Source: Promethearchaeota archaeon
GTDB lineage: Archaea > Asgardarchaeota > Lokiarchaeia > Sigyniarchaeales > SOKP01
Reading direction: 5' to 3'
Assembly (NCBI GenBank): GCA_048941015.1
Contig: JBHLNZ010000062.1
Location: 1-18,710, forward strand
DNA length: 18,710 nt
Shown: positions 1 to 18,709 of the stretch, in pieces
Numbering within the stretch: the stretch's first letter is position 1
Layout: each line of letters opens with the position of its first letter
The notes under the pieces: generated by a model
The model's input: only the letters and a program-made list of their open reading frames with translations
The model's database searches: none
Told to the model about the DNA's origin: nothing
Made by a program: the position numbers and the translations under genes

Positions 1-120
1 AAGAATTCTAATTATTATTTATTTTTAATGATCTTTATATTTCATTCTAATAATTTTTAAATTATTTTAAAAGTTTTACTTCATATAATTCTTTTTCAAT
101 AATTGAATTTTGGTATTAAT

Positions 121-417
121 ATGCGTTCGCGGAAACCTTTTTTAATTTTTTGGCCTCAATATTTTGATGCAAAAAGAAGTCGTGCAAAAGGTAGAAGGGT
201 TTCGAAAAAACTTGCTGTCGATAAGATAACTGCTGATGATATTTTCAAAGCTGCTAACCGTTTAGGTTATAAAACACAGTATGAAAAAGGTTATAAATAT
301 CCTAAGACATGGTGGGACGATTCCGATCGAGTAGTAATAGATACTAAGGGAAAAAAGAAGCAGAAAGTCATTTTAGAAATTGCTAAAGAAATTAAAAAAG
401 TACAATCCAAGAGATAA
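121..417 (+). CDS. srp19: Signal recognition particle 19 kDa protein (SRP19/SEC65)
   Basis: Motifs IFWPQYFDAKRSRAKGRRVSK and KYPKTWW..RVVI..KGKKKQKVILEIA are typical of SRP19. ATG at 121 is preferred over TTG at 103. Confidence 0.95.
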   Translation: MRSRKPFLIFWPQYFDAKRSRAKGRRVSKKLAVDKITADDIFKAANRLGYKTQYEKGYKYPKTWWDDSDRVVIDTKGKKKQKVILEIAKEIKKVQSKR

Positions 418-9229: not shown

Positions 9230-11380
9230 ATGGATAATAACGACATAATTTACTTTAACTATCCATTCTTAAAAAAGAACAAACTCCTTTACCGACAATA
9301 TCAAGAAAGTATTGTTCAGAATTGTAAAAACAGAAATTCCTTAGTGGTTTTACCTACTGGATTAGGAAAAACAATTATTGCGGTAATATTAATTGCAAAA
9401 GCACTTGAAAAGTATCCTAAGGGTAAAGTAATTATTCTTGCTCCTACTAGGCCCTTAGTTTATCAACATAAAAGATCCTGCGAAAAATTTCTTGATATTA
9501 AAAAAGATAATATTATCACCTTAACTGGCAAAGTGTCTCCTGAAAATAGATCACTGCAATTTTTTAACTCCCAAATTATAATATCTACTCCTCAGGTAAT
9601 AAAGAATGATTTAGATAAAGAAAGATACAACTTAAAGCATGTATCTTTAATTGTTTTTGATGAATCACATCGGACAAGAAGAAATTATGCCTATAATTAT
9701 ATTTCAAAAGAATATATTGATGCTTGCTCAGATCCATTGATATTGGGATTAACAGCATCTCCAGGGAAAGATTATAACCATATTCAAGAATTATGTGATA
9801 ATTTATTTATTGAGAATGTAGTGTTTAAAAATTATAATGATAAAGATGTTCAAAAATACATTTATGAAATTGATACTTATCTTGAGGTTGTTAATTTACC
9901 TATTAAACTTTTAGAGTTAAGTGCAGTTTGGGATAATCTATTCCAGCGATTTCTGAGATTCTTTATCGAAAGAAAATTAATCCCACCAAACAAACCGTAC
10001 TATTCAAAATTAGATTTTTTATCATTATCTCGAGATTTAACTATATCCTTGCGTTTAGAGAATGATTATAGTTCAATATTTTCAGAAGAAAATTACTTAG
10101 AATTATTGTACTTTAAATCTCCAAAGATCATTGATATTATTAGAGAAAGAAACCTAAATATTCAAACGATTTTTTCTTATTGTTCAAGCTGTATTTCTTT
10201 ATTACATGGTAAAGATTTACTAGAAACGCAAAATGTAACTTTATTTAAATCATTTTTAGATAAACTAAAGTTTAAAGCAGGCCAGGATATCCTATCTGCC
10301 AAAAGAATCATTGATTCTGAACATATTAAATTTATTGACACGATGCTAACTAATTACTGTGATGAAATTTCTCATCCAAAAATATCCAAATTATTATTGA
10401 TTTTAGAAGAAGAATTAAATGAGTATCATAATAATAAGATTTTAATCTTTACCCAATATCGAGAGATGGCAGAATATCTAAAAAATAGATTAAATAGAGA
10501 ATTAGAACATAAAGTAAGAGTAGAAAAATTTATTGGACAAACAACTAAAGTTGATGATTTAGGTTATACGCAAGACAAACAGGTTGAAATACTGAATCAA
10601 TTTAGAGAAGGGAAAATCAGCATTCTTATCGCAACAAGTGTTGCTGAAGAAGGATTAGATATACCTAATGTTGATGCAATAGTTTTTTATGAGCCTGTTC
10701 CTTCAGAAATTAGATTAATCCAAAGAAGAGGAAGAACTGGGCGAACTGCTTCTGGAAGATGCTATATTCTTGCAACTCGTTCTACAGTAGATATACCTTT
10801 TTATAAAATTTCTGAAAGAAAAGAAATGACCATGAATGAGGTACTATCTCACCCAAAGCAGTTAGATTTGTGTAATAATATAAAACGAAAAAAAATCGAT
10901 TTTTCCACATTTTTAGAAGAGTATTCAGAAGAAAATTTCTTAGAAAAAGCTCAAGAAAGAAAGGAAAAAGAGAGAGAATTACTTGCCAATAAGTCAATAG
11001 AAGAAATTATCTTAGAGCTTGATAATTTCGTTAATAGTGATGAATATAAAACTTTAAAGAAGTATGGGATTACTCTTTATAATGATGTCTTAGATATAGA
11101 TAAATCAAAATTAAAAGCTTCTTTAGTACGTTTAAAATCAAGAGGAACAAAGACAATTCGAGAGAATAGAAATTATCTTAATAAGAAATTAAAGACATTA
11201 ATTAATATTGTAAAGAATTTTTGTATAGATGGTAAGATCGACTTTCTCTCTTTTAAACAACGCGCTCATGATGAAGAAATATCAGAAGATAAATTTTATC
11301 TTCATTTCAATCAAGCTTGTTATTTAGGGTATCTTAAAAGAATTGGTGATGATGTTCAATTAGTTATGGATTATGAATAG
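9230..11380 (+). CDS. hef: Hef/FANCM/Mph1-family SF2 DNA helicase without an ERCC4 nuclease domain; C-terminal winged helix
   Basis: RQYQ, LPTGLGKT, LAPTRPLV, STPQ, DESHR, GLTASPG, IFTQYR, ATSVAEEGLDIP, YEPVPSEIRLIQRRGRTGR. Confidence 0.92.
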   Translation: MDNNDIIYFNYPFLKKNKLLYRQYQESIVQNCKNRNSLVVLPTGLGKTIIAVILIAKALEKYPKGKVIILAPTRPLVYQHKRSCEKFLDIKKDNIITLTGKVSPENRSLQFFNSQIIISTPQVIKNDLDKERYNLKHVSLIVFDESHRTRRNYAYNYISKEYIDACSDPLILGLTASPGKDYNHIQELCDNLFIENVVFKNYNDKDVQKYIYEIDTYLEVVNLPIKLLELSAVWDNLFQRFLRFFIERKLIPPNKPYYSKLDFLSLSRDLTISLRLENDYSSIFSEENYLELLYFKSPKIIDIIRERNLNIQTIFSYCSSCISLLHGKDLLETQNVTLFKSFLDKLKFKAGQDILSAKRIIDSEHIKFIDTMLTNYCDEISHPKISKLLLILEEELNEYHNNKILIFTQYREMAEYLKNRLNRELEHKVRVEKFIGQTTKVDDLGYTQDKQVEILNQFREGKISILIATSVAEEGLDIPNVDAIVFYEPVPSEIRLIQRRGRTGRTASGRCYILATRSTVDIPFYKISERKEMTMNEVLSHPKQLDLCNNIKRKKIDFSTFLEEYSEENFLEKAQERKEKERELLANKSIEEIILELDNFVNSDEYKTLKKYGITLYNDVLDIDKSKLKASLVRLKSRGTKTIRENRNYLNKKLKTLINIVKNFCIDGKIDFLSFKQRAHDEEISEDKFYLHFNQACYLGYLKRIGDDVQLVMDYE

Positions 11381-11384
11381 CTTA

Positions 11385-14300
11385 CTAAACTTTCTTTTCC
11401 TTTCTTTTTTTAAATATAATATAGAATAAGATAACAATTGCGCATATAATTAATATAATAAGGATCCCGGGATTTCCTCCTGTAGCTGTAGACAAGGATA
11501 TTGTTATAGACAAGATTGCAGCTACGAAAGTAAAAATGCTGTAATTTTGAGTGGTAAAATTCTTTAAATGCTTGTAAAACATATAAAACCGAAAATTCAT
11601 CTTCTTAATAACCTCTAGTTCTGTTTCATCTAAATCTTTTAAAACCTCAGGATTTTCGTAATATAAACCTAATCGAGGTTCATATTTTCCTAATAAACTA
11701 CCTGCGCTTATTAATGAAATGAGTCTATCTTGGATTATTTGTTTCTTAATTTTTAATTCGTTTTGTAAAAAGCTTAAAGTTAAGTATTCATTAGCAACAG
11801 CTTTAATTGCCATTTCTACATATGATTTAATTATTAATTCTTCTAATGACTTCACTTTTTCATTAAGAATATCATAAAAACTCTTCAAGAATTGCTCAAA
11901 ATCAGAAATAATATGTTTATTTTTAGTTGAAAAATTTTTGGAGTGTTTATCATAATCCTTAATCAATAATTTAACGTTTTTATAAATTTCTTTTAATTCA
12001 TTTTGAATTCCTTTTTCTCTTTTTGATACTTTACTATAAGCTCGTTTGAATTCTTCATAATCAATATAATCTTCGACTCGAGCTTGTAGAGTTCCAAGAA
12101 GCTGGCTTAGATGTATCTTATATTTATTTAAATGTTCAATGAAATTGTTGCGGAACGATTCATCTTTTAAATGATTAATTTCTTCATTAATCATTTTTAT
12201 TTTGTCTTCAAAGAATTTTTGTAATTGTTTTTTATAGGAAACAAAAAATTCCCTAATTTCCGTTTCAAATTTCTTTGAATCCGATGATTTTTCTAAGGTT
12301 TCAGTTATTTGATTTTCAACTTTTTCATATGATAATTCCAATTTGTTTTCAATTCTTTGCTTTTTGTTTTCTAATACTTCAATTAATTTAGAGTATGAAT
12401 GACTTTCTTCATAACCTTCAAAAAATCTTGAAAATTCTTTTTCTAGATTTAATTTTAGGGCATTAAATTCTTGACCAATAGAATTTTGCAAGTTAGAAAA
12501 TTGTTTCAAGCTATTCTGAATAGAATTGATTGCTAAATTATTATTCTCAATTGTTTCTTCGAAACTTTTTCTGATTTCGATACTCTCATGTCTATTTTCT
12601 CTGATATTAAGCTCTTGGAACTTCTTTTGAAATTGCTGTCTAATTTGACTTTCAACACTAGAAAAATCATCAATTCTGTTTTGGATCTCAAGAAAATTAA
12701 CTGCTAAAGTTTTATTTCTTATGCTCGAATCATAAAGTGCTAAAATTTTTCCTACTGTTTTTTGCGTGTTTTTTAATAACTTATTCTGAGTATAAATCAT
12801 TAATTCATTAATTTTATAGTAATGCTCAGTGTGAACAGTAATATTTTTATTATCCTCATTAAGGTCTCCTTGTATTCTCGAGCTTTCAATCATTTCTTTA
12901 ATTCTTGAAATTAATGCTTTACATTTTAAACTTAATTTGTCAGATAATTTTTTAAGATCCACTCTATCTGTATTTTCATTTTCACAAAATAAATTCATCT
13001 CATCTATTATAATTTGATTTACATACTCCTCTTTCAATTTAGATATCTCATTGTTTAAAAATTCTCGAAATTTTTCCCATTGTATTGTAGTGATTGAAGA
13101 AGCATCAGAATTTTCAACTATATTTTTTAAATTATTTAACTTTTTGAGGTATTTTTTATTTACATTATCCAATTCGATGAGAATTCTATCAAATCCTTGT
13201 ATTACTTGGTTAATTCTTTTCTCTTGCATTTGATTTAGTTTAGATTTATATTCTTCAACTTCATTTTTGAAATTTTTCATTTCATCAGATACAAAATTAT
13301 CGAAGTCTTCTATTTTTGCTCTATTTCTTTCTTCTAATACGCTATTTTTTAGAGATTGGACTTGTTCTGCAATGATATCTATTATATTCTCTTCTAATGT
13401 TTCTAATTTGTCTTGTAGATATTTATAAAGAAGATATAGTTTTTGTTTATTTTCTGTTTCGTTTTTAATCTGAGATTTAAGCTCTTTAATTTCTTGAATT
13501 TTTTTATTAAGTAAATTATCAGATTCTTTTTTTATAATCTCGAATGCATCTTTAAATTTATTCTCATCCACCTTAACTTGAGCGAGATTTTTAAGTTTAT
13601 TAATCTCTATTTGAATGATTTCATTAGTATTTTCAACAATTTTCATCTTGTTATTAAAAAATTGAAAACCATCTGAATAATAATTAGATAGTGTATCAAA
13701 ATTTTCTTTAAAGTTAACCCAACCACTTATTATTTTCTTATGTTTCTTTACTATTTTATCATCTTTGGTTTTTATCTGTTGAGATACCTTGTAAATAATA
13801 TTATCATACTTACTTACATATTGAGAAATCCTATTAAAAGCCTGAATTATTAAATTGAACTTTTCTTCACTATAGTTGGATTCTAAAACTTCTTTAAAAT
13901 ATTTTTCGTATGAATCTAATTCTTTTTTAATGTAATCTTCTACTTCTGCAACTTTTTTCTCTAATTCATCTAATACTTTATCAAATTGTTTGATTTCCTC
14001 TTTTTCTAATATCTTCTCTTTAAGATATCTATCAAGGCTATTAAGTCTATCATGTAAAAAAATATAAGATTTTTTCCAACGTGAAATTTCAGAGGCTAAT
14101 CTTGCTTGAATATTAATATATTTTAATTCTTCATTAAAAGAATTTTCAATATTTTCATTTAAAAAATCCGCTTCCATTAACGCATTTCTTAATATAAATT
14201 TCAATCTTTCTTTAGCATAATTTATCTCATCTAAAAGTAAATAAGATTCAATTTCTTCCTTAATTTGAGAAATGGCATTATTTAGCTTTAAAGTCATATT

Positions 14301-15797
14301 ATAAATATCGTTCTTAATATCAATTATTATTTCTTTTTCATTGGAAAGAGCTTCTGAATCGATTTCCATATCCGCAATAATAATTTTTTCATATACAAAA
14401 TCCAAACAAAGAAAATACTTCTTCCTAAAAGATATTCCCCTTCTTGTTCTTATCTCTCCTTTGAAAAGATGCTTATTTATCATCTCTTTTATATAAGGAA
14501 AAAGATCTTCCTTTAGTTTCATGGGTTCGTAAAGTGATGAATTTCTATACTTCTTAAAAATGTCTGAAAGTGATATAATACTTTTTTGTTGAATTTGATT
14601 GAAAATTTCTTTGAGAACTATTTTCTTTCCTTCAGAAAATTCACTTATATATTGATTGAATTCTACTAAACAATCTAAAATTCTCAAATTAAAATTGTAA
14701 TTAAGATTAATGAATAATATTATCTCGTCGATCCCATGACTTAATCCTAAGATCGATTTTATTTGATTGACATCAATAAACTTTTCTTTCTCTAAATGCC
14801 TGAAAATTATCCTTTCTATCTCTTCAATAAATTTGTTCCAAATATATGATAAAATTATAACCAATTTTGATAAAATCTTGACACTTGTAAAATCCCAGTT
14901 TTCTTCATGATCTAGTAATTCATTCACTTTTTTGTTTATAAAAGAATAAATTTCTGCGGGATTATAATCTATCTTCCAAGAATATAACTCAAGAATATAT
15001 GCAATCCAAAATGAAGTGGTTATTGAGCCCATAGCATCATCATAACTAAAACCACCATCATTTCTTTGATATTGATAAAGATTTTCTATTTCCTTATCTT
15101 TTACTTCAGAATCTAAATCAAGTGCTTTAATAATTGCTAATTTATATACAATAGAAGAATCTTTTCTAATATAATCAATATAAGATTGAAATTGTTTAGT
15201 ATATAAGCGAATTTCAATATTTAAAAGTCTTAAAATTTCCGTAACAAAGTAGAGTGTCTTGGCATATGAATCTTTTTCGCAAATTTCACAATTCTTATCG
15301 AAACAATGTAAAAATTTATGCCCTTTTTTATGAGCATTAATAAAATTAAAGATTTTTCTTTCGATATTATCTTTTTCTTTGGAAGTGATATATTCCTTTA
15401 ACATCCCTAAAATGCTTAATGCTGAAAATGCATAGTAAGTAGACCAGATATCAGGCTCCTTCCCTTGATCTGGAGCTGATTTAAACCCTAACTGATCATA
15501 GTCATGAATTTCAACTTCACAATTCTTAATAAACTTAAAAATCTCTTCTTTTTGATCTTCTCTATTTTCTTTTAAATATTTTCTCAATAAAAGTAGCCAA
15601 TACAAATTTTCGAGAGTTAAAGATTTATTAGAAAGAAAAGTTTCATTAATTTTTTTATAAATTTTGACAATTTGATTATATTGACTTAAATAGAAGCTAC
15701 TGATGTCCTTACTATCAATAATAACAAAGGATTTAAACGGTTCCTTTTTGAATTCACTAATGTACGGGTACGCCGTCTTTTTTTCTACTTTTGCCAA
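11385..15797 (-). CDS. Giant (1470 aa) protein: prenyltransferase-beta/squalene-cyclase-repeat-like head, PCI-like winged helices, long coiled coils, two C-terminal TM helices
   Basis: Uninterrupted 4.4-kb ORF with a TTG start and GGGG upstream. Motifs GFKSAPDQGKEPDIWSTYYAFSALSILG and YQRNDGGFS; heptad-rich K/E/Q helices; hydrophobic C-terminal hairpin followed by KKRKEKKV. Confidence 0.8.
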   Translation of the reverse strand: MAKVEKKTAYPYISEFKKEPFKSFVIIDSKDISSFYLSQYNQIVKIYKKINETFLSNKSLTLENLYWLLLLRKYLKENREDQKEEIFKFIKNCEVEIHDYDQLGFKSAPDQGKEPDIWSTYYAFSALSILGMLKEYITSKEKDNIERKIFNFINAHKKGHKFLHCFDKNCEICEKDSYAKTLYFVTEILRLLNIEIRLYTKQFQSYIDYIRKDSSIVYKLAIIKALDLDSEVKDKEIENLYQYQRNDGGFSYDDAMGSITTSFWIAYILELYSWKIDYNPAEIYSFINKKVNELLDHEENWDFTSVKILSKLVIILSYIWNKFIEEIERIIFRHLEKEKFIDVNQIKSILGLSHGIDEIILFINLNYNFNLRILDCLVEFNQYISEFSEGKKIVLKEIFNQIQQKSIISLSDIFKKYRNSSLYEPMKLKEDLFPYIKEMINKHLFKGEIRTRRGISFRKKYFLCLDFVYEKIIIADMEIDSEALSNEKEIIIDIKNDIYNMTLKLNNAISQIKEEIESYLLLDEINYAKERLKFILRNALMEADFLNENIENSFNEELKYINIQARLASEISRWKKSYIFLHDRLNSLDRYLKEKILEKEEIKQFDKVLDELEKKVAEVEDYIKKELDSYEKYFKEVLESNYSEEKFNLIIQAFNRISQYVSKYDNIIYKVSQQIKTKDDKIVKKHKKIISGWVNFKENFDTLSNYYSDGFQFFNNKMKIVENTNEIIQIEINKLKNLAQVKVDENKFKDAFEIIKKESDNLLNKKIQEIKELKSQIKNETENKQKLYLLYKYLQDKLETLEENIIDIIAEQVQSLKNSVLEERNRAKIEDFDNFVSDEMKNFKNEVEEYKSKLNQMQEKRINQVIQGFDRILIELDNVNKKYLKKLNNLKNIVENSDASSITTIQWEKFREFLNNEISKLKEEYVNQIIIDEMNLFCENENTDRVDLKKLSDKLSLKCKALISRIKEMIESSRIQGDLNEDNKNITVHTEHYYKINELMIYTQNKLLKNTQKTVGKILALYDSSIRNKTLAVNFLEIQNRIDDFSSVESQIRQQFQKKFQELNIRENRHESIEIRKSFEETIENNNLAINSIQNSLKQFSNLQNSIGQEFNALKLNLEKEFSRFFEGYEESHSYSKLIEVLENKKQRIENKLELSYEKVENQITETLEKSSDSKKFETEIREFFVSYKKQLQKFFEDKIKMINEEINHLKDESFRNNFIEHLNKYKIHLSQLLGTLQARVEDYIDYEEFKRAYSKVSKREKGIQNELKEIYKNVKLLIKDYDKHSKNFSTKNKHIISDFEQFLKSFYDILNEKVKSLEELIIKSYVEMAIKAVANEYLTLSFLQNELKIKKQIIQDRLISLISAGSLLGKYEPRLGLYYENPEVLKDLDETELEVIKKMNFRFYMFYKHLKNFTTQNYSIFTFVAAILSITISLSTATGGNPGILIILIICAIVILFYIIFKKRKEKKV

Positions 15798-15967
15798 TTA
15801 GAAGAGACCCCTAAATTCATTTTGATTATAATGAAAATAATGGCATATATTTTTTTGGGATTGAAAACATTCTTTAATATTTCATACTTTTAAAACCCAA
15901 ATATTTCAGACTTATTAGAGATTATTTCTTAGAGAAATTACCATTTTCGTTTCTGGTGTACATATTA

Positions 15968-17449
15968 ATGAAAATTTTAGCGATAGATATTGGGACTCAA
16001 AGTATAAGAGCCGCCATATTAAACCATACTGGTTCAATTTTATCAATTTCACAAGAAATACAAGAAATAAATAGTCCGTATCCGGGGTGGGCTCAACAGA
16101 AGCCAAAAATATGGTGGACTCTCACTAAAAAGGTAGTTTCTGATGTATTATTAAAATCAAAAGTTGATCGATCATCAATTAAAGCAATTTGTACATGTGG
16201 ACAGATGCATGGACCAGTAGGAATCGATAATAGAGGTAATATTACCACTGAATGGACTCAAATTTGGATGGATAAACGCTGTGAAGATATTTGTAAACAA
16301 TTAAGGAAAAATAACGACGAATCAGAGCTTGCAGAAAAAATAACTGGTAATCCAATAACATCAGGTTGGCTTGGTATTAAAGTTCGTTGGATAAAAGAAA
16401 ATCAGCCTGAAGTTTATAAAAAAACTCGTTACTTTTTAGTACCTAAAGATTTTATAAATTTTATGATTAGTAAAGTAGCAGCAACGGACCATAGTGAAGC
16501 TTCTGGGACCTATCTCTATGATTATAATATAGAAAATTATTCTTCAAAAATGGCAGATATAATTGATATTGATTTAGAAAAATTCGCACCAATTCATAAT
16601 TCATATGATATTATCGGAAATATTACTGAAGATTTCGCGAAAGAATTTTCCCTTTCTCCGGATACTCCAGTTCTAGCAGGGGGTGGAGATTTCCTCGTTT
16701 CTCTTCTGGGCTTAGGATTAATTAATGAAAAAATTGCGATTGATATGACTGGAACGAGTACCTTGTTTGTTATATATAAAGAACAACCAATTGTACAGCC
16801 TATGATTCAAAATCTTAGACATGTTATCAAAGGATGGGTACCCTTTACTATACTAGATTGCGGAGGATTAAGTATGAAATGGTTTAAAGATTTTTTAAAT
16901 TCAAGCGGAAAAGCAGAAATATCATTTGATGAAATTATCAAAATGGCTGAATCAATTCCAATTGGAAGTGATGGTTTGTTGTTTTACCCTTATATGCTTG
17001 GTGAACGTCGAAAAGAAAATAATTTAGCACGAGGTTGCTTTTTTGGAATTAATTTAAACCACACTATTGCAAATTTCGCTCGAGCAGTAATGGAGGGAGT
17101 TTCTTTAGCTCTAGGAAAAGATATACAAATTTTCAAAGAATTGGGTATTAATATTGAACATGTGATATGTGTTGGAGGAGCAACTAGAAATAAATTATTA
17201 TATCAAATAAAAAGTGATGTAATGCAAATTCCCCATATTTTAATGGGTGAACCTGAAGCGAGTCTTAGAGGTTGTGGCTTATTATCTGCTTATGGATTAG
17301 GCTTAATCAAAAACTTCGACAATTTAAATGATATAAATGAAATAAAAATTACCAAAATCCATCCTGATAAAACCGTAGCTGAAAAATATAATAACTTGTT
17401 AATAGAATTCAAAAAATTATATAGTCATTTACTAGGCTATTGGTCTTAA
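15968..17449 (+). CDS. FGGY-family carbohydrate kinase (xylulokinase-like)
   Basis: ILAIDIGTQS, PGWAQQ, GQMHG, WMDKR, PKDFI, TDHSEASGT, GGGD, GTS, PYMLGER, RAVMEGV, VGGA. ATG at 15968 with GGTG at 15955-15958 as RBS. Substrate is not certain. Confidence 0.9.
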   Translation: MKILAIDIGTQSIRAAILNHTGSILSISQEIQEINSPYPGWAQQKPKIWWTLTKKVVSDVLLKSKVDRSSIKAICTCGQMHGPVGIDNRGNITTEWTQIWMDKRCEDICKQLRKNNDESELAEKITGNPITSGWLGIKVRWIKENQPEVYKKTRYFLVPKDFINFMISKVAATDHSEASGTYLYDYNIENYSSKMADIIDIDLEKFAPIHNSYDIIGNITEDFAKEFSLSPDTPVLAGGGDFLVSLLGLGLINEKIAIDMTGTSTLFVIYKEQPIVQPMIQNLRHVIKGWVPFTILDCGGLSMKWFKDFLNSSGKAEISFDEIIKMAESIPIGSDGLLFYPYMLGERRKENNLARGCFFGINLNHTIANFARAVMEGVSLALGKDIQIFKELGINIEHVICVGGATRNKLLYQIKSDVMQIPHILMGEPEASLRGCGLLSAYGLGLIKNFDNLNDINEIKITKIHPDKTVAEKYNNLLIEFKKLYSHLLGYWS

Positions 17450-17485: not shown

Positions 17486-18709
17486 TTATAAAGGTGGCAC
17501 ACTGTTAAAGCTAAATGTGTTTATTATGCCCATATTATCATGTATCAATGGTGATTGAATCATTAATACATTCCGTGGTGGTGGAGGTAAGCTAGGGAAA
17601 TAATTTAAAGCAAAGTTAAATGCAGCGTTTATTGTTTGACCATAATTTAACTGTTCCCAAAACCAATGAAAGAACCATGAACCCGCAAAACCATCAGGAT
17701 TTTGACTATTTACCCAATACCATGAAAAAACATTTGAAGCAGCACTTATCATAATACAATTAGGGATATTATACCAACTCGATCCGATATTCTGGTTTTC
17801 ATTTAAAAAATTTCCACTAAAGCAAGAGTCAACATTGATCATCATGCGAGCACATTCAATTTTTTTTACCAGATTGAAAAATTCAAATTCGGTTATCCAA
17901 CTATTATCTGCCTCAAAATGAAAGGTCGCATTACCATCACCAAGTATTTTATTTGATCCATGATCACACATAAAGATTATAAAGTAGTCATTTGGTTTTA
18001 CCTTAGATGCAAATGAACCAGAAACGGACACATTCAATTCTTCCTTAAATCTTGCTGCAGTCACACTGTTATTAGCAACATCTATTATTGCTGGTTCTGT
18101 ACCATGGATTAGATCGTTTGGATATGCATCAGAAGCGTTAATGTCAATGATACCATCAACATCATTTTTATAATAAAGCATGAGAAAGATGTTATCATCA
18201 GTATAGCCGTGATTTTTCAAGACCCAATAAACTTGGAGTGCTTGGGCTGGAAAACCATCAGAGTCCTTTTTTACTGTTGTTGGAGGAGGTTGTGTTGGAT
18301 TAGTTACATTTACCGATATTAGGCGATCCATAATTACATCATCATAATACATATGATCAGATGCACCACCTGCAAAAATTCCTTCTACTGCTAATACTAG
18401 TTTAAGATCAATTATTTCATTATTCGTTTCATTATTACAGAAACCGACCACATTAATTTCAAACCAATTATTTAATGATGAATTATGACTGTTAGACCAA
18501 TCTAATCTAACTGTCCCTCCAGTTGAATTTATCCATTGTAATCCAATTCGCACACCGCTACCTTGTATTGGACTGTCACTGTCAATAAATACTTTTGTTG
18601 ACATATTATATAAAGCATATTCATATAAAAATTGAAATTTTGACCAATTATATGAAAAATTAGCTATGATTAAATTATCATCTAAAGGTTGGATGAAAAT
18701 CGATTGATT
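17486..18709 (-). CDS. C13 (legumain/GPI8-like, caspase-fold) cysteine peptidase with an upstream jelly-roll-like domain; 5' end lies outside the window
   Basis: His-Cys dyad in IFMCDHGS and INVDSCFSG; QVYWVLKNHGYTDDNIFLM resembles legumain helix 1. The frame stays open beyond ATG 18604 to the window edge (NQSIFIQPLDDNLIIANFSYNWSKFQFLYEYALYN-MSTK). Confidence 0.82.
   Translation of the reverse strand, partial: NQSIFIQPLDDNLIIANFSYNWSKFQFLYEYALYNMSTKVFIDSDSPIQGSGVRIGLQWINSTGGTVRLDWSNSHNSSLNNWFEINVVGFCNNETNNEIIDLKLVLAVEGIFAGGASDHMYYDDVIMDRLISVNVTNPTQPPPTTVKKDSDGFPAQALQVYWVLKNHGYTDDNIFLMLYYKNDVDGIIDINASDAYPNDLIHGTEPAIIDVANNSVTAARFKEELNVSVSGSFASKVKPNDYFIIFMCDHGSNKILGDGNATFHFEADNSWITEFEFFNLVKKIECARMMINVDSCFSGNFLNENQNIGSSWYNIPNCIMISAASNVFSWYWVNSQNPDGFAGSWFFHWFWEQLNYGQTINAAFNFALNYFPSLPPPPRNVLMIQSPLIHDNMGIINTFSFNSVPPL

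What the first reader, a model, noticed from the sequence alone, without database searches (positions are those of the whole stretch)
11385..15797. Giant C-terminally anchored coiled-coil protein with a prenyltransferase-like head and PCI-like winged helices: candidate archaeal membrane tether/scaffold
Seen in sequence, N to C: (i) no signal peptide; (ii) ~300 aa of alpha/alpha-barrel-type repeats (EEIFKFIKNCE..GFKSAPDQGKEPDIWSTYYAFSALSILG; ENLYQYQRNDGGFS); (iii) one or two winged-helix-like units (~14820-14390); (iv) ~450 aa of coiled coil; (v) a PCI-like WH (DRVDLKKLSDKLSL..SRIKEMIESSRIQGDLNEDN, ~12970-12840); (vi) more coiled coil; (vii) another PCI-like WH (EYLTLSFLQNELKI..DRLISLISAGSLLGKYEPRLG, ~11790-11655); (viii) a 2-TM hairpin with a basic tail. 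Established: the repeats in (ii) typify protein prenyltransferase beta subunits and terpene cyclases; PCI WHs typify the proteasome lid/CSN/eIF3; long C-anchored coiled coils typify golgin tethers. Inference: a long cytoplasmic rod fixed in the membrane whose distal head may bind isoprenoid lipid or a lipidated protein. I know of no described protein with this architecture.
Basis: partly seen in the sequence, partly recalled or inferred. Interest (0 to 1): 0.85.

Follow-up and report, generated by a model that had tools for sequence, protein, structure and literature searches.

The report
Lokiarchaeial membrane-anchored toroid-headed rod protein
This gene encodes a 1470-residue protein found in nearly all Lokiarchaeia: its head resembles a eukaryotic protein-prenyltransferase beta subunit, its rod is built from a duplicated helical-bundle plus PCI winged-helix unit, and a C-terminal hairpin anchors it in the membrane; the combination is undescribed and the function is untested.

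Summary
The ORF at 11385..15797 (minus strand, TTG start, 1470 aa) is real. It is single-copy and keeps almost exactly the same length in Lokiarchaeia: 133 of 134 genomes of its own family, and 12 of 14 of a sister family at about 25% identity. No credible homologue was found outside the class.

- **Head:** aa 36-324 is a complete alpha/alpha toroid, closest to protein prenyltransferase beta subunits (Z about 22).
- **Winged helices:** four are modelled, and two of them are PCI/DDRGK-type.
- **Anchor:** a C-terminal two-helix hairpin with positively charged flanks puts the bulk of the protein in the cytoplasm.

Corrections and additions:
- The "coiled coil" models as serial three-helix (spectrin-like) bundles, not a golgin-type rod.
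- The rod is a tandem duplication of a unit of about 380 aa (bundles plus PCI winged helix; hhalign 99.2%, E 2e-19).
- The canonical prenyltransferase zinc ligands are absent. A family-specific His/Cys cluster is present instead.

My best reading is a cytoplasmic, membrane-anchored scaffold or spacer with a ligand-binding head. The function itself is inferred. This scan has already reported orthologues of this protein in other genomes, with the same reading. No paper describing the family was found.

The parts
11385..15797 (-). Whole gene: 1470 codons plus stop, TTG start
   Evidence: Homologues begin at the equivalent position and are 1460-1504 aa long.
15726..15779 (-). Conserved N-terminal peptide, aa 7-24 (pattern K.AYPYI..FKKEPF.SF), predicted disordered
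   Evidence: At least 90% conserved in 120 homologues. pLDDT is below 50 for aa 1-17. Still recognisable in members at about 25% identity.
14826..15692 (-). Alpha/alpha toroid head, aa 36-324, like a protein prenyltransferase beta subunit
   Evidence: Pfam PF00432. Foldseek E about 1e-5. VIA Z 21-22.6. A head-only profile hits only RabGGTase beta in the PDB, E 2e-6.
15279..15308 (-). His/Cys cluster in a loop, aa 164-173 (H-C-x4-C-x2-C). Together with invariant C93 (15519..15521) it is a candidate zinc site.
   Evidence: Among 120 homologues C93, H164, C165 and C170 are each present in all 120, and C173 in 78. Metal binding is inferred, not tested.
14643..14780 (-). Winged-helix-like unit 1, aa 340-385
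   Evidence: AF2 secondary structure, strand-helix-helix-strand, pLDDT about 88-92.
14373..14633 (-). Winged-helix-like unit 2, aa 389-475, with a three-stranded wing
   Evidence: AF2 model. Weak profile similarity to winged helix 3 (hhalign 83%, E 9e-6).
13968..14357 (-). First helical bundle, aa 481-610. It holds the most conserved stretch of the whole protein (aa about 496-575).
   Evidence: Mean column conservation is 0.76-0.83, against 0.5-0.7 elsewhere. Helices at 481-521, 525-554 and 568-640.
12813..13967 (-). Repeat unit A, aa 611-995: three-helix bundles followed by PCI-type winged helix 3 (aa about 943-990, window 12828..12971)
   Evidence: hhalign of unit A against unit B gives 99.2%, E 2e-19, over 370 columns. 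The rods alone score 97, against 37 or less in shuffled and reversed controls. Matches to spectrin and plakin repeats reach Z 11-13.5. PCI/DDRGK evidence.
11643..12812 (-). Repeat unit B, aa 996-1385: three-helix bundles followed by PCI-type winged helix 4 (aa about 1336-1382, window 11652..11792)
   Evidence: aa 993-1323 aligns to three spectrin repeats (Z 9.8) and Kar9 (Z 10.6). aa 1219-1382 aligns to a proteasome-lid PCI subunit at Z 8.1 over 121 residues.
11547..11627 (-). Basic, aromatic helices just before the membrane, aa 1391-1417. Probably lie at the membrane interface.
   Evidence: Helices in model 2. Net charge in the 20 aa before TM1 averages +4, minimum +2, in 33 members. The interfacial role is inferred.
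11412..11543 (-). Transmembrane hairpin: TM1 aa 1419-1438, a short uncharged loop (G-G-N-P-G), TM2 aa 1444-1462
   Evidence: Hydropathy. AF2 helices. Conserved across the family. The G.NP loop motif is conserved only within the window's own family.
11388..11411 (-). Basic C-terminal tail, aa 1463-1470 (net +5)

Best explanation
The gene encodes a cytoplasmic, elongated scaffold fixed to the inner face of the cell membrane by a C-terminal two-helix hairpin.

From the membrane outwards it has two tandem copies of an ancient unit of about 380 aa (about three three-helix bundles plus a PCI-type winged helix). Next come a highly conserved helical bundle and two further winged helices. At the far end sits a prenyltransferase-beta-like alpha/alpha toroid preceded by a conserved disordered peptide.

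I infer that it works as a rigid spacer and docking platform. The winged helices and the conserved bundle would bind partner proteins at fixed distances from the membrane. The toroid has lost the canonical catalytic zinc ligands, so it would act as a binding module for a hydrophobic, possibly isoprenoid-bearing, ligand or for a peptide.

Shown here: the gene, its conservation, the domain folds (predicted), the internal duplication and the topology logic. Inferred: rigidity, overall length (roughly 35-45 nm if extended, counting about 5 nm per bundle), partner docking and ligand binding.
For: - **Conservation:** more than 200 full-length homologues of 1460-1504 aa align with almost no gaps over all 1470 positions. 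The gene is single-copy and present in 133/134, 1/1, 12/14, 2/3, 2/2 and 2/2 genomes of six Lokiarchaeial families. Such fixed length fits a structure whose geometry matters.
- **Models:** two overlapping AF2 models have mean pLDDT 81.9 and 83.2.
- **Head:** Z about 22 to prenyltransferase beta subunits, and Pfam PF00432 in 27 of 33 members.
- **Lost catalytic site:** the places in register with RabGGTase beta D238/C240/H290 hold S/N/D/T and no Cys or His in any of 33 diverse members.
- **Winged helices:** PCI in 29 of 33 members. PCI-complex subunits dominate the Foldseek list for the rod.
- **Rod:** three-helix-bundle matches from two searches, one of them independent of Foldseek.
- **Duplication:** supported against shuffled and reversed controls.
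- **Topology:** no N-terminal hydrophobic segment, and positive charge on both flanks of the hairpin.
- **Not an operon member:** neighbouring genes are housekeeping genes.
Against: - No partner, ligand or localisation has been shown.
- Z values of 10-13.5 for helical bundles lie in the range that common helical arrangements reach by chance (notes). 'Spectrin-like' therefore describes the model and does not show homology.
- The relative orientation of the modules is uncertain (pTM 0.38-0.54).
- The invariant His/Cys cluster could be a new catalytic site rather than a structural one.
- The zinc-ligand mapping rests on alignment register, not on a residue-level superposition.
Confidence: 0.45

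Rival explanations
1. Membrane-to-membrane or membrane-to-vesicle tether. The hairpin sits in one membrane, and the distal toroid captures isoprenoid lipid, or a lipidated protein, on another membrane or on a protrusion.
For: A C-terminal anchor with a distal head on an elongated rod. The toroid is of the type that binds isoprenoid diphosphates. Many aromatic residues in the head are conserved: W67, F105, F263, W264, W274, Y278.
Against: Internal membranes have not been established in Lokiarchaeia (my own knowledge). The rod is not a golgin-type coiled coil. Lipid binding is untested. The four winged helices and the highly conserved bundle are not explained by tethering alone.
Confidence: 0.15
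2. Membrane-anchored core of a PCI-type or UFL1/DDRGK1-type assembly. Its winged helices would join other winged-helix or PCI proteins edge to edge, recruiting protein-modification, proteasome or ribosome machinery to the membrane.
For: The winged helices are PCI/DDRGK-type. The same genome encodes three tandem small PCI proteins, one further PCI protein, and a 795-aa protein matching the UFL1, DDRGK, PCI and Vps28-C families. DDRGK1 is itself a membrane-anchored winged-helix protein (my own knowledge).
Against: No link between these genes and the giant gene was found in position or co-occurrence. No Ufm1 family match was found in this 95%-complete genome, and the UFC1 match is just under the cut-off. 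The query's own PCI score is below Pfam's cut-off.
Confidence: 0.15
3. Active membrane-tethered enzyme. The toroid would catalyse prenyl transfer or cyclisation using the family-specific His/Cys cluster as a new metal site. The rod would position the active site relative to the isoprenoid membrane.
For: C93, H164, C165 and C170 are each present in all 120 homologues, and C173 in 78. The fold is that of zinc-dependent prenyltransferases. Archaeal membranes supply isoprenoid substrates (my own knowledge).
Against: The canonical D/C/H ligands are absent. No alpha-subunit-like partner was found, only a generic TPR protein. Four or five Cys/His ligands close together in one loop suggest a structural zinc knuckle. 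Some divergent members lack the cluster. An active site at the far end of a 1100-aa rod is hard to reconcile with membrane substrates.
Confidence: 0.12
4. Surface-exposed protein. The large N-terminal part lies outside the cell, and the C-terminal motif, helix and basic tail form a sorting signal that is processed, for example by the nearby C13 peptidase.
For: The G.NP loop, hydrophobic helix and basic tail loosely resemble three-part C-terminal sorting signals. There is a weak LPXTG-anchor match, E 0.3. A C13 (legumain/GPI8-like) gene lies directly upstream on the same strand in several genomes of the genus.
Against: There is no signal peptide or N-terminal hydrophobic segment. Both flanks of the hairpin are positively charged. 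The loop motif and the C13 neighbour are not conserved in the sister family. The domain types (prenyltransferase beta, PCI) are cytoplasmic in known systems.
Confidence: 0.03

Closest known systems
Protein prenyltransferase beta subunits (RabGGTase/GGTase-III beta, GGTase-I beta, FTase beta; Pfam PF00432)
   Same: A complete alpha/alpha toroid (Z 21-22.6, rmsd 3.0-3.5 A, about 255-270 aligned residues). Q..GGF-type repeats. Pfam score above the cut-off. RabGGTase beta is the only PDB sequence family hit by the head profile.
   Different: The canonical Asp/Cys/His zinc ligands are not present. No alpha subunit was identified. There is a family-specific His/Cys loop. The head is fused to a 1100-aa rod and a membrane hairpin. 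Sequence identity is only 13-19%.
PCI-domain scaffold subunits (proteasome lid Rpn3/5/6/7/9/12, CSN1-4/7/8, eIF3a/c/e/l, TREX-2 PCID2) and the DDRGK1/UFL1 winged-helix array
   Same: A helical region followed by a PCI-type winged helix. Pfam PCI in 29 of 33 family members. These proteins dominate the Foldseek list for the rod. DDRGK1 winged helix aligns at Z 8.6, rmsd 1.8 A. DDRGK1 is also membrane-anchored.
   Different: Two PCI-type units sit in a single chain, derived from an internal duplication. The preceding helices form three-helix bundles, not TPR-like solenoids. No MPN partner or horseshoe assembly is known. This sequence's own PCI and DDRGK scores are below Pfam's cut-offs.
Membrane-anchored spectrin-repeat linkers (nesprins, plakins such as plectin, spectrin, bacterial EzrA)
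   Same: A predicted series of three-helix bundles joined by continuous helices, with a membrane anchor at one end and a globular head at the other. Plectin Z 12.8, beta2-spectrin Z 12.6, nesprin-2 Z 11.4.
   Different: There is no sequence similarity and no Pfam spectrin match. The Z values are within the range of generic helical arrangements. The head is a toroid, not a calponin-homology domain. Winged helices interrupt the rod. The anchor is a hairpin.
Golgins and other C-terminally anchored coiled-coil tethers
   Same: A C-terminal membrane anchor, an elongated helical body, and a functional N-terminal end.
   Different: Golgins are long parallel two-stranded coiled coils. Here the helices are 30-73 aa long and fold back into bundles in confident models.

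Membership tests
Protein prenyltransferase beta subunit (PF00432) | Alpha/alpha (six-hairpin) toroid fold | tested here: met
   AF2 model aa 36-324. VIA Z 21-22.6 to GGTase-I, RabGGTase and FTase beta, against Z 16 for squalene-hopene cyclase.
Protein prenyltransferase beta subunit (PF00432) | Pfam model score above the curated cut-off | tested here: met
   41.7 bits against a 26.5-bit cut-off. 27 of 33 diverse homologues match, best E 3e-20.
Protein prenyltransferase beta subunit (PF00432) | Catalytic zinc ligands Asp/Cys/His (D238, C240, H290 in rat RabGGTase beta, numbering from my own knowledge) | tested here: not met
   Using the register from VIA (model 36..324 to chain 16..304) and the shared S-[FW]-W motif, the equivalent places are aa about 258, 260 and 310. 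Columns 254-267 and 305-315 hold no conserved Cys or His in 33 members. This is a register-based mapping, not a residue-level superposition.
Protein prenyltransferase beta subunit (PF00432) | Obligate alpha subunit with PPTA repeats | tested here: inconclusive
   A PF01239 search of the genome gave only sub-threshold hits, in what proved to be a generic 8-repeat TPR protein.
PCI domain (PF01399) | Winged helix of PCI type preceded by a helical region; Pfam match | tested here: met
   Met at family level: 29 of 33 homologues at E 0.01 or better, best 1.8e-10. This sequence scores only E 1 as a whole protein and E 0.009 for winged helix 3 alone. Structural matches to CSN, Rpn and TREX-2 winged helices reach Z 8-10.
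PCI domain (PF01399) | Assembly into a multi-subunit PCI/MPN complex | not testable with these tools
   No partner was identified. Other PCI proteins exist in the genome, but nothing links them to this gene.
DDRGK1/UFL1 (PF09756, PF09743) | Pfam DDRGK or E3_UFM1_ligase score above the cut-off | tested here: not met
   DDRGK scores 20.4 bits against a 27.8-bit cut-off for winged helix 3 alone. There is no UFL1 match. The similarity is limited to a single winged helix.
Spectrin repeat proteins | Serial three-helix bundles of about 106 aa joined by continuous helices; Pfam spectrin match | tested here: inconclusive
   The models match 2-3 consecutive spectrin or plakin repeats at Z 9.8-13.5, which is within the range generic helical matches can reach. 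No Pfam spectrin hit.
Golgin-type coiled-coil tethers | Long, mostly uninterrupted two-stranded coiled coil | tested here: not met
   Confident monomer models (pLDDT 82-83) break the helices every 30-73 aa and fold them into bundles. This is a prediction only.
C-terminally anchored (tail- or hairpin-anchored) membrane proteins | No signal peptide; hydrophobic segment(s) only at the extreme C-terminus; flank charges compatible with a cytoplasmic bulk | tested here: met

The most novel reading that the evidence does not exclude
This is a Lokiarchaeia-wide membrane-skeleton or linker protein, functionally analogous to nesprins, plakins or spectrin. It would connect the cell membrane to the cytoskeleton, ESCRT or protein-modification machinery through winged-helix docking sites and a repurposed prenyltransferase-like head. 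That would make it an archaeal, independently built forerunner of eukaryote-style membrane-cytoskeleton organisation.
Probability: 0.15. Interest if true: 0.85.

Novelty: new variant of a known kind. Interest (0 to 1): 0.62.

Why it matters
Lokiarchaeia are among the closest cultured archaeal relatives of eukaryotes. They have an actin cytoskeleton and elaborate protrusions, but little is known about how their membrane is organised from the inside.

This protein is a nearly universal, single-copy, length-invariant 1470-residue component of the class. Its domain types are best known from eukaryotic cell biology: a prenyltransferase beta toroid, PCI winged helices and spectrin-like bundles. Orthologues appear to exist in closed genomes whose sizes match the cultured species, which I infer from genome size only. 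Localisation, pull-down and cryo-ET experiments are therefore feasible.

The internal duplication and the loss of the catalytic zinc site give concrete handles for dissecting how the rod evolved and what the head binds.

Tried and rejected
- **Homodimer test:** repeat unit B (aa 996-1417, two copies) went to complex prediction. The result was no verdict (score 0.00, controls not run). This is not evidence either way.
- **Winged helices 1 and 2 plus the conserved bundle:** a profile of aa 331-620 searched against PDB sequences gave nothing meaningful (best E 0.12, myohemerythrin). These two units therefore have no named relative.
- **Whole-protein profile against the PDB:** apart from weak RabGGTase, DDRGK1 and PCI hits, the matches were compositional hits to apolipoproteins, viral fusion proteins and designed helical proteins. 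I rejected them as helical bias.
- **HipA_C Pfam hit:** E 7e-4, below the cut-off, found in 1 of 33 members. Rejected.
- **LPXTG anchor hit:** E 0.3. Rejected.
- **ESM Atlas:** returned only the protein's own cluster.
- **Literature:** five searches found no paper on this family. The ESCRT survey PMC11188069 mentions PCI/HTH domains in Asgard proteins but not this architecture.
- **Operon partners:** none found. The neighbours are a helicase (convergent), an FGGY kinase, CBS-domain, RsmB-like, FAD and CCG proteins.
- **Ufm1 system:** no Ufm1 family match in the genome.
- **Model coordinates:** Cavity residues, rod length and the position of the His/Cys cluster could not be measured.

Full report
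**The gene.** The window has one long ORF at 11385..15797 on the minus strand, 1470 codons with a TTG start. The TTG is the first start codon in frame. The N-terminus it gives aligns with the N-termini of homologues. The window is AT-rich (GC 0.23-0.33).

**Conservation and distribution.** A word-indexed search of 5.8 billion proteins found 216 relatives. The 120 listed are almost all 1460-1504 aa long, 47-88% identical and cover about 100% of the query. Their sources label them Lokiarchaeota, Promethearchaeota, Hodarchaeota or Hermodarchaeota MAG proteins. Their names are 'hypothetical', 'prenyltransferase/squalene oxidase repeat-containing' or 'conserved membrane protein of unknown function'.
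- My alignment of these has essentially no gaps along all 1470 positions.
- An exhaustive HMMER scan of 1.84 billion cluster representatives found only 74 hits. All are full-length family members (1417-1499 aa, down to 21% identity) or fragments. Not even canonical prenyltransferases reached E 0.001.
- In whole genomes the gene is single-copy in its own genome.
- A family profile finds it in 133/134, 1/1, 12/14, 0/4, 2/3, 2/2 and 2/2 genomes of the seven families of its class. Outside the class only 8 of about 240 genomes gave marginal hits, E 1e-5 to 1e-8.
- The four negative genomes of family f4 are 63-88% complete. For them I can only say 'not found with this query'.

**Head.** Pfam PF00432 matches aa 43-212 above its cut-off. 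It also matches 27 of 33 diverse members.
- AF2 on aa 1-1200 with 120 homologues gave mean pLDDT 81.9, with the head mostly at about 85-96.
- Foldseek's first 24 PDB hits, and nearly all of its top 50, are protein prenyltransferase beta chains.
- VIA-align gives Z 21-22.6, rmsd 3.0-3.5 A, 253-269 aligned residues over aa 36-324, against Z 16 for squalene-hopene cyclase. The toroid is therefore complete, contrary to a companion first-reader note.
- A head-only profile hits only RabGGTase beta among all PDB sequences, E 2e-6.
- Using the VIA register and the shared S-[FW]-W motif, the RabGGTase zinc ligands fall on aa about 258, 260 and 310. None of 33 diverse members has Cys or His there.
- C93, H164, C165 and C170 are instead invariant in 120 homologues, and C173 is present in 78. 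They form an H-C-x4-C-x2-C loop after a beta hairpin. I read this as a probable structural zinc knuckle. That is an inference.
- The first 17 residues model as disordered, yet aa 7-24 are at least 90% conserved. This is typical of a short docking motif, which is also an inference.

**Winged helices and rod.** Model 1 and a second model (aa 480-1470, 121 sequences including 19 divergent ones, pLDDT 83.2) show four winged-helix units, at aa 340-385, 389-475, about 943-990 and about 1336-1382.
- The third unit on its own matches Pfam DDRGK (E 4e-4) and PCI (E 0.009), both below their cut-offs. PCI is nevertheless found in 29 of 33 homologues, best E 1.8e-10.
- Structurally the third unit aligns to DDRGK1 (Z 8.6, rmsd 1.8 A, 62 residues) and to CSN, Rpn and TREX-2 PCI winged helices. 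The fourth region aligns to a proteasome-lid subunit (Z 8.1, 121 residues).
- Foldseek's list for the rod is dominated by lid, CSN and eIF3 PCI subunits at weak E values, 8e-4 to 5e-2.
- Between the winged helices the helices are 30-73 aa long and fold back on themselves.
- Both a Foldseek-seeded second look and a search independent of Foldseek put serial three-helix bundles on top. These are alpha-spectrin repeats 15-17 (Z 13.5), plectin (Z 12.8), beta2-spectrin (Z 12.6), nesprin-2 (Z 11.4), Kar9 and the alpha-actinin rod. The matches hold for both aa about 489-824 and aa about 993-1323.
- These Z values are in the range that generic helical arrangements can reach. 'Spectrin-like' therefore describes the model and is not a claim of homology.

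**Internal duplication.** Profile-profile alignment of aa 480-995 against aa 996-1385 aligns aa about 611-982 with aa about 998-1375 at 99.2% probability, E 2e-19, over 370 columns. The helical parts alone, without winged helices, give 97.7%, E 2e-12 and score 97. Winged helix 3 against winged helix 4 gives 97.3%. Controls with column-shuffled, 14-column-block-shuffled and reversed alignments scored 11-37. The rod is thus a tandem duplication of a unit of about 380 aa. I did not see this point in the summaries of the scan's earlier reports on orthologues.

**Anchor and topology.** The only hydrophobic windows are aa 1418-1466. They model as two helices joined by a five-residue uncharged loop. 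The arrangement persists in members at 18-25% identity. In 33 diverse members the net charge averages +4 (minimum +2) in the 20 aa before TM1, 0 in the loop, and +3 after TM2. There is no N-terminal signal. By the positive-inside rule, both ends and the 1400-aa body face the cytoplasm.

**Genomic context.** No operon partner emerged.
- The one conserved neighbour is a Hef-like DEAD/Helicase_C gene lying tail to tail, 5-55 nt away in most cases. It is present in 12 of 17 loci, including the sister family at about 25% identity.
- Because the two genes converge, they cannot be co-transcribed.
- A C13 peptidase gene lies directly upstream on the same strand in several genomes of the genus. Here an FGGY kinase gene on the opposite strand separates the two.

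**Interpretation.** The fixed length, the folded bundles and the docking-type domains argue for a rigid, membrane-attached scaffold or spacer with a ligand-binding head. The tether, PCI/UFL1-like assembly core and active-enzyme readings remain open. An extracellular location is unlikely. One homodimer prediction gave no verdict (listed under Tried and rejected only).

**Relation to earlier scan findings.** The scan has already noted orthologues in other genomes. Two follow-up reports reached the same architecture. My results were obtained independently on this window and agree with them.

**Limits.** Model coordinates could not be inspected.

Noticed in passing
window 9230..11380 (+) next to 11385..15797 (-); also L013, L015, L018-L022, L032-L035: The Hef-like helicase gene (DEAD + Helicase_C, 716 aa) converges tail to tail on the giant gene with a 4-nt gap. 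The same convergent pair, mostly 5-55 nt apart, is kept in 12 of 17 loci, including the sister family where the giant protein is only about 25% identical. The reason for this conserved convergent pairing is unexplained.
   Followed up: partly
window 17486..18604 (-) and 15956..17449 (+); L002, L006, L007, L008, L011: In several genomes of the same genus, a C13 (legumain/GPI8-like) peptidase gene lies 146-195 nt directly upstream of the giant gene on the same strand. In this window an FGGY carbohydrate kinase gene on the opposite strand sits between them.
   Followed up: partly
G000 contig C19, L036:367-2754 (+): A 795-aa protein of the same genome matches E3_UFM1_ligase/UFL1 (63.7 bits), DDRGK (61.7 bits) and two PCI winged helices (80 bits), all above their cut-offs. 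It also gives a sub-threshold VPS28 C-terminal match (22.8 bits). A UFC1-like ORF (24.7 bits against a 25-bit cut-off) lies at L044:1501-1959. No Ufm1 family match was found.
   Followed up: partly
G000 contig C9, L039:686-2719 (-): Three consecutive small genes (195, 250 and 199 aa) each carry a PCI domain above Pfam's cut-off. Another PCI protein of 233 aa, scoring just under the cut-off, lies at L041:1423-2124.
   Followed up: no
G000 contig C46, L024:1390-2472 (-): A stand-alone 360-aa prenyltransferase-toroid protein (PF00432, 72 bits). It is weakly similar to farnesyltransferase beta (E 5e-5) and is not a close paralogue of the giant protein's head (BLASTP E 7e-4 over 85 aa).
   Followed up: partly
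L016:7905-12368 (+), in a closed 6.04-Mb genome of the sister family: The orthologue's frame is open for 1487 codons and encodes the conserved N-terminal peptide. However, it has no ATG, GTG or TTG in its first 156 codons, and a run of nine A lies near the start. This suggests a non-canonical start codon or a homopolymer sequencing error. A database homologue of this lineage (P0149, 1417 aa) is annotated from a later Met that would truncate the toroid.
   Followed up: partly
window 11469..11483 (-): The extracytoplasmic loop motif G-x-N-P between the two membrane helices is conserved within the window's own family but not in more distant family members.
   Followed up: partly
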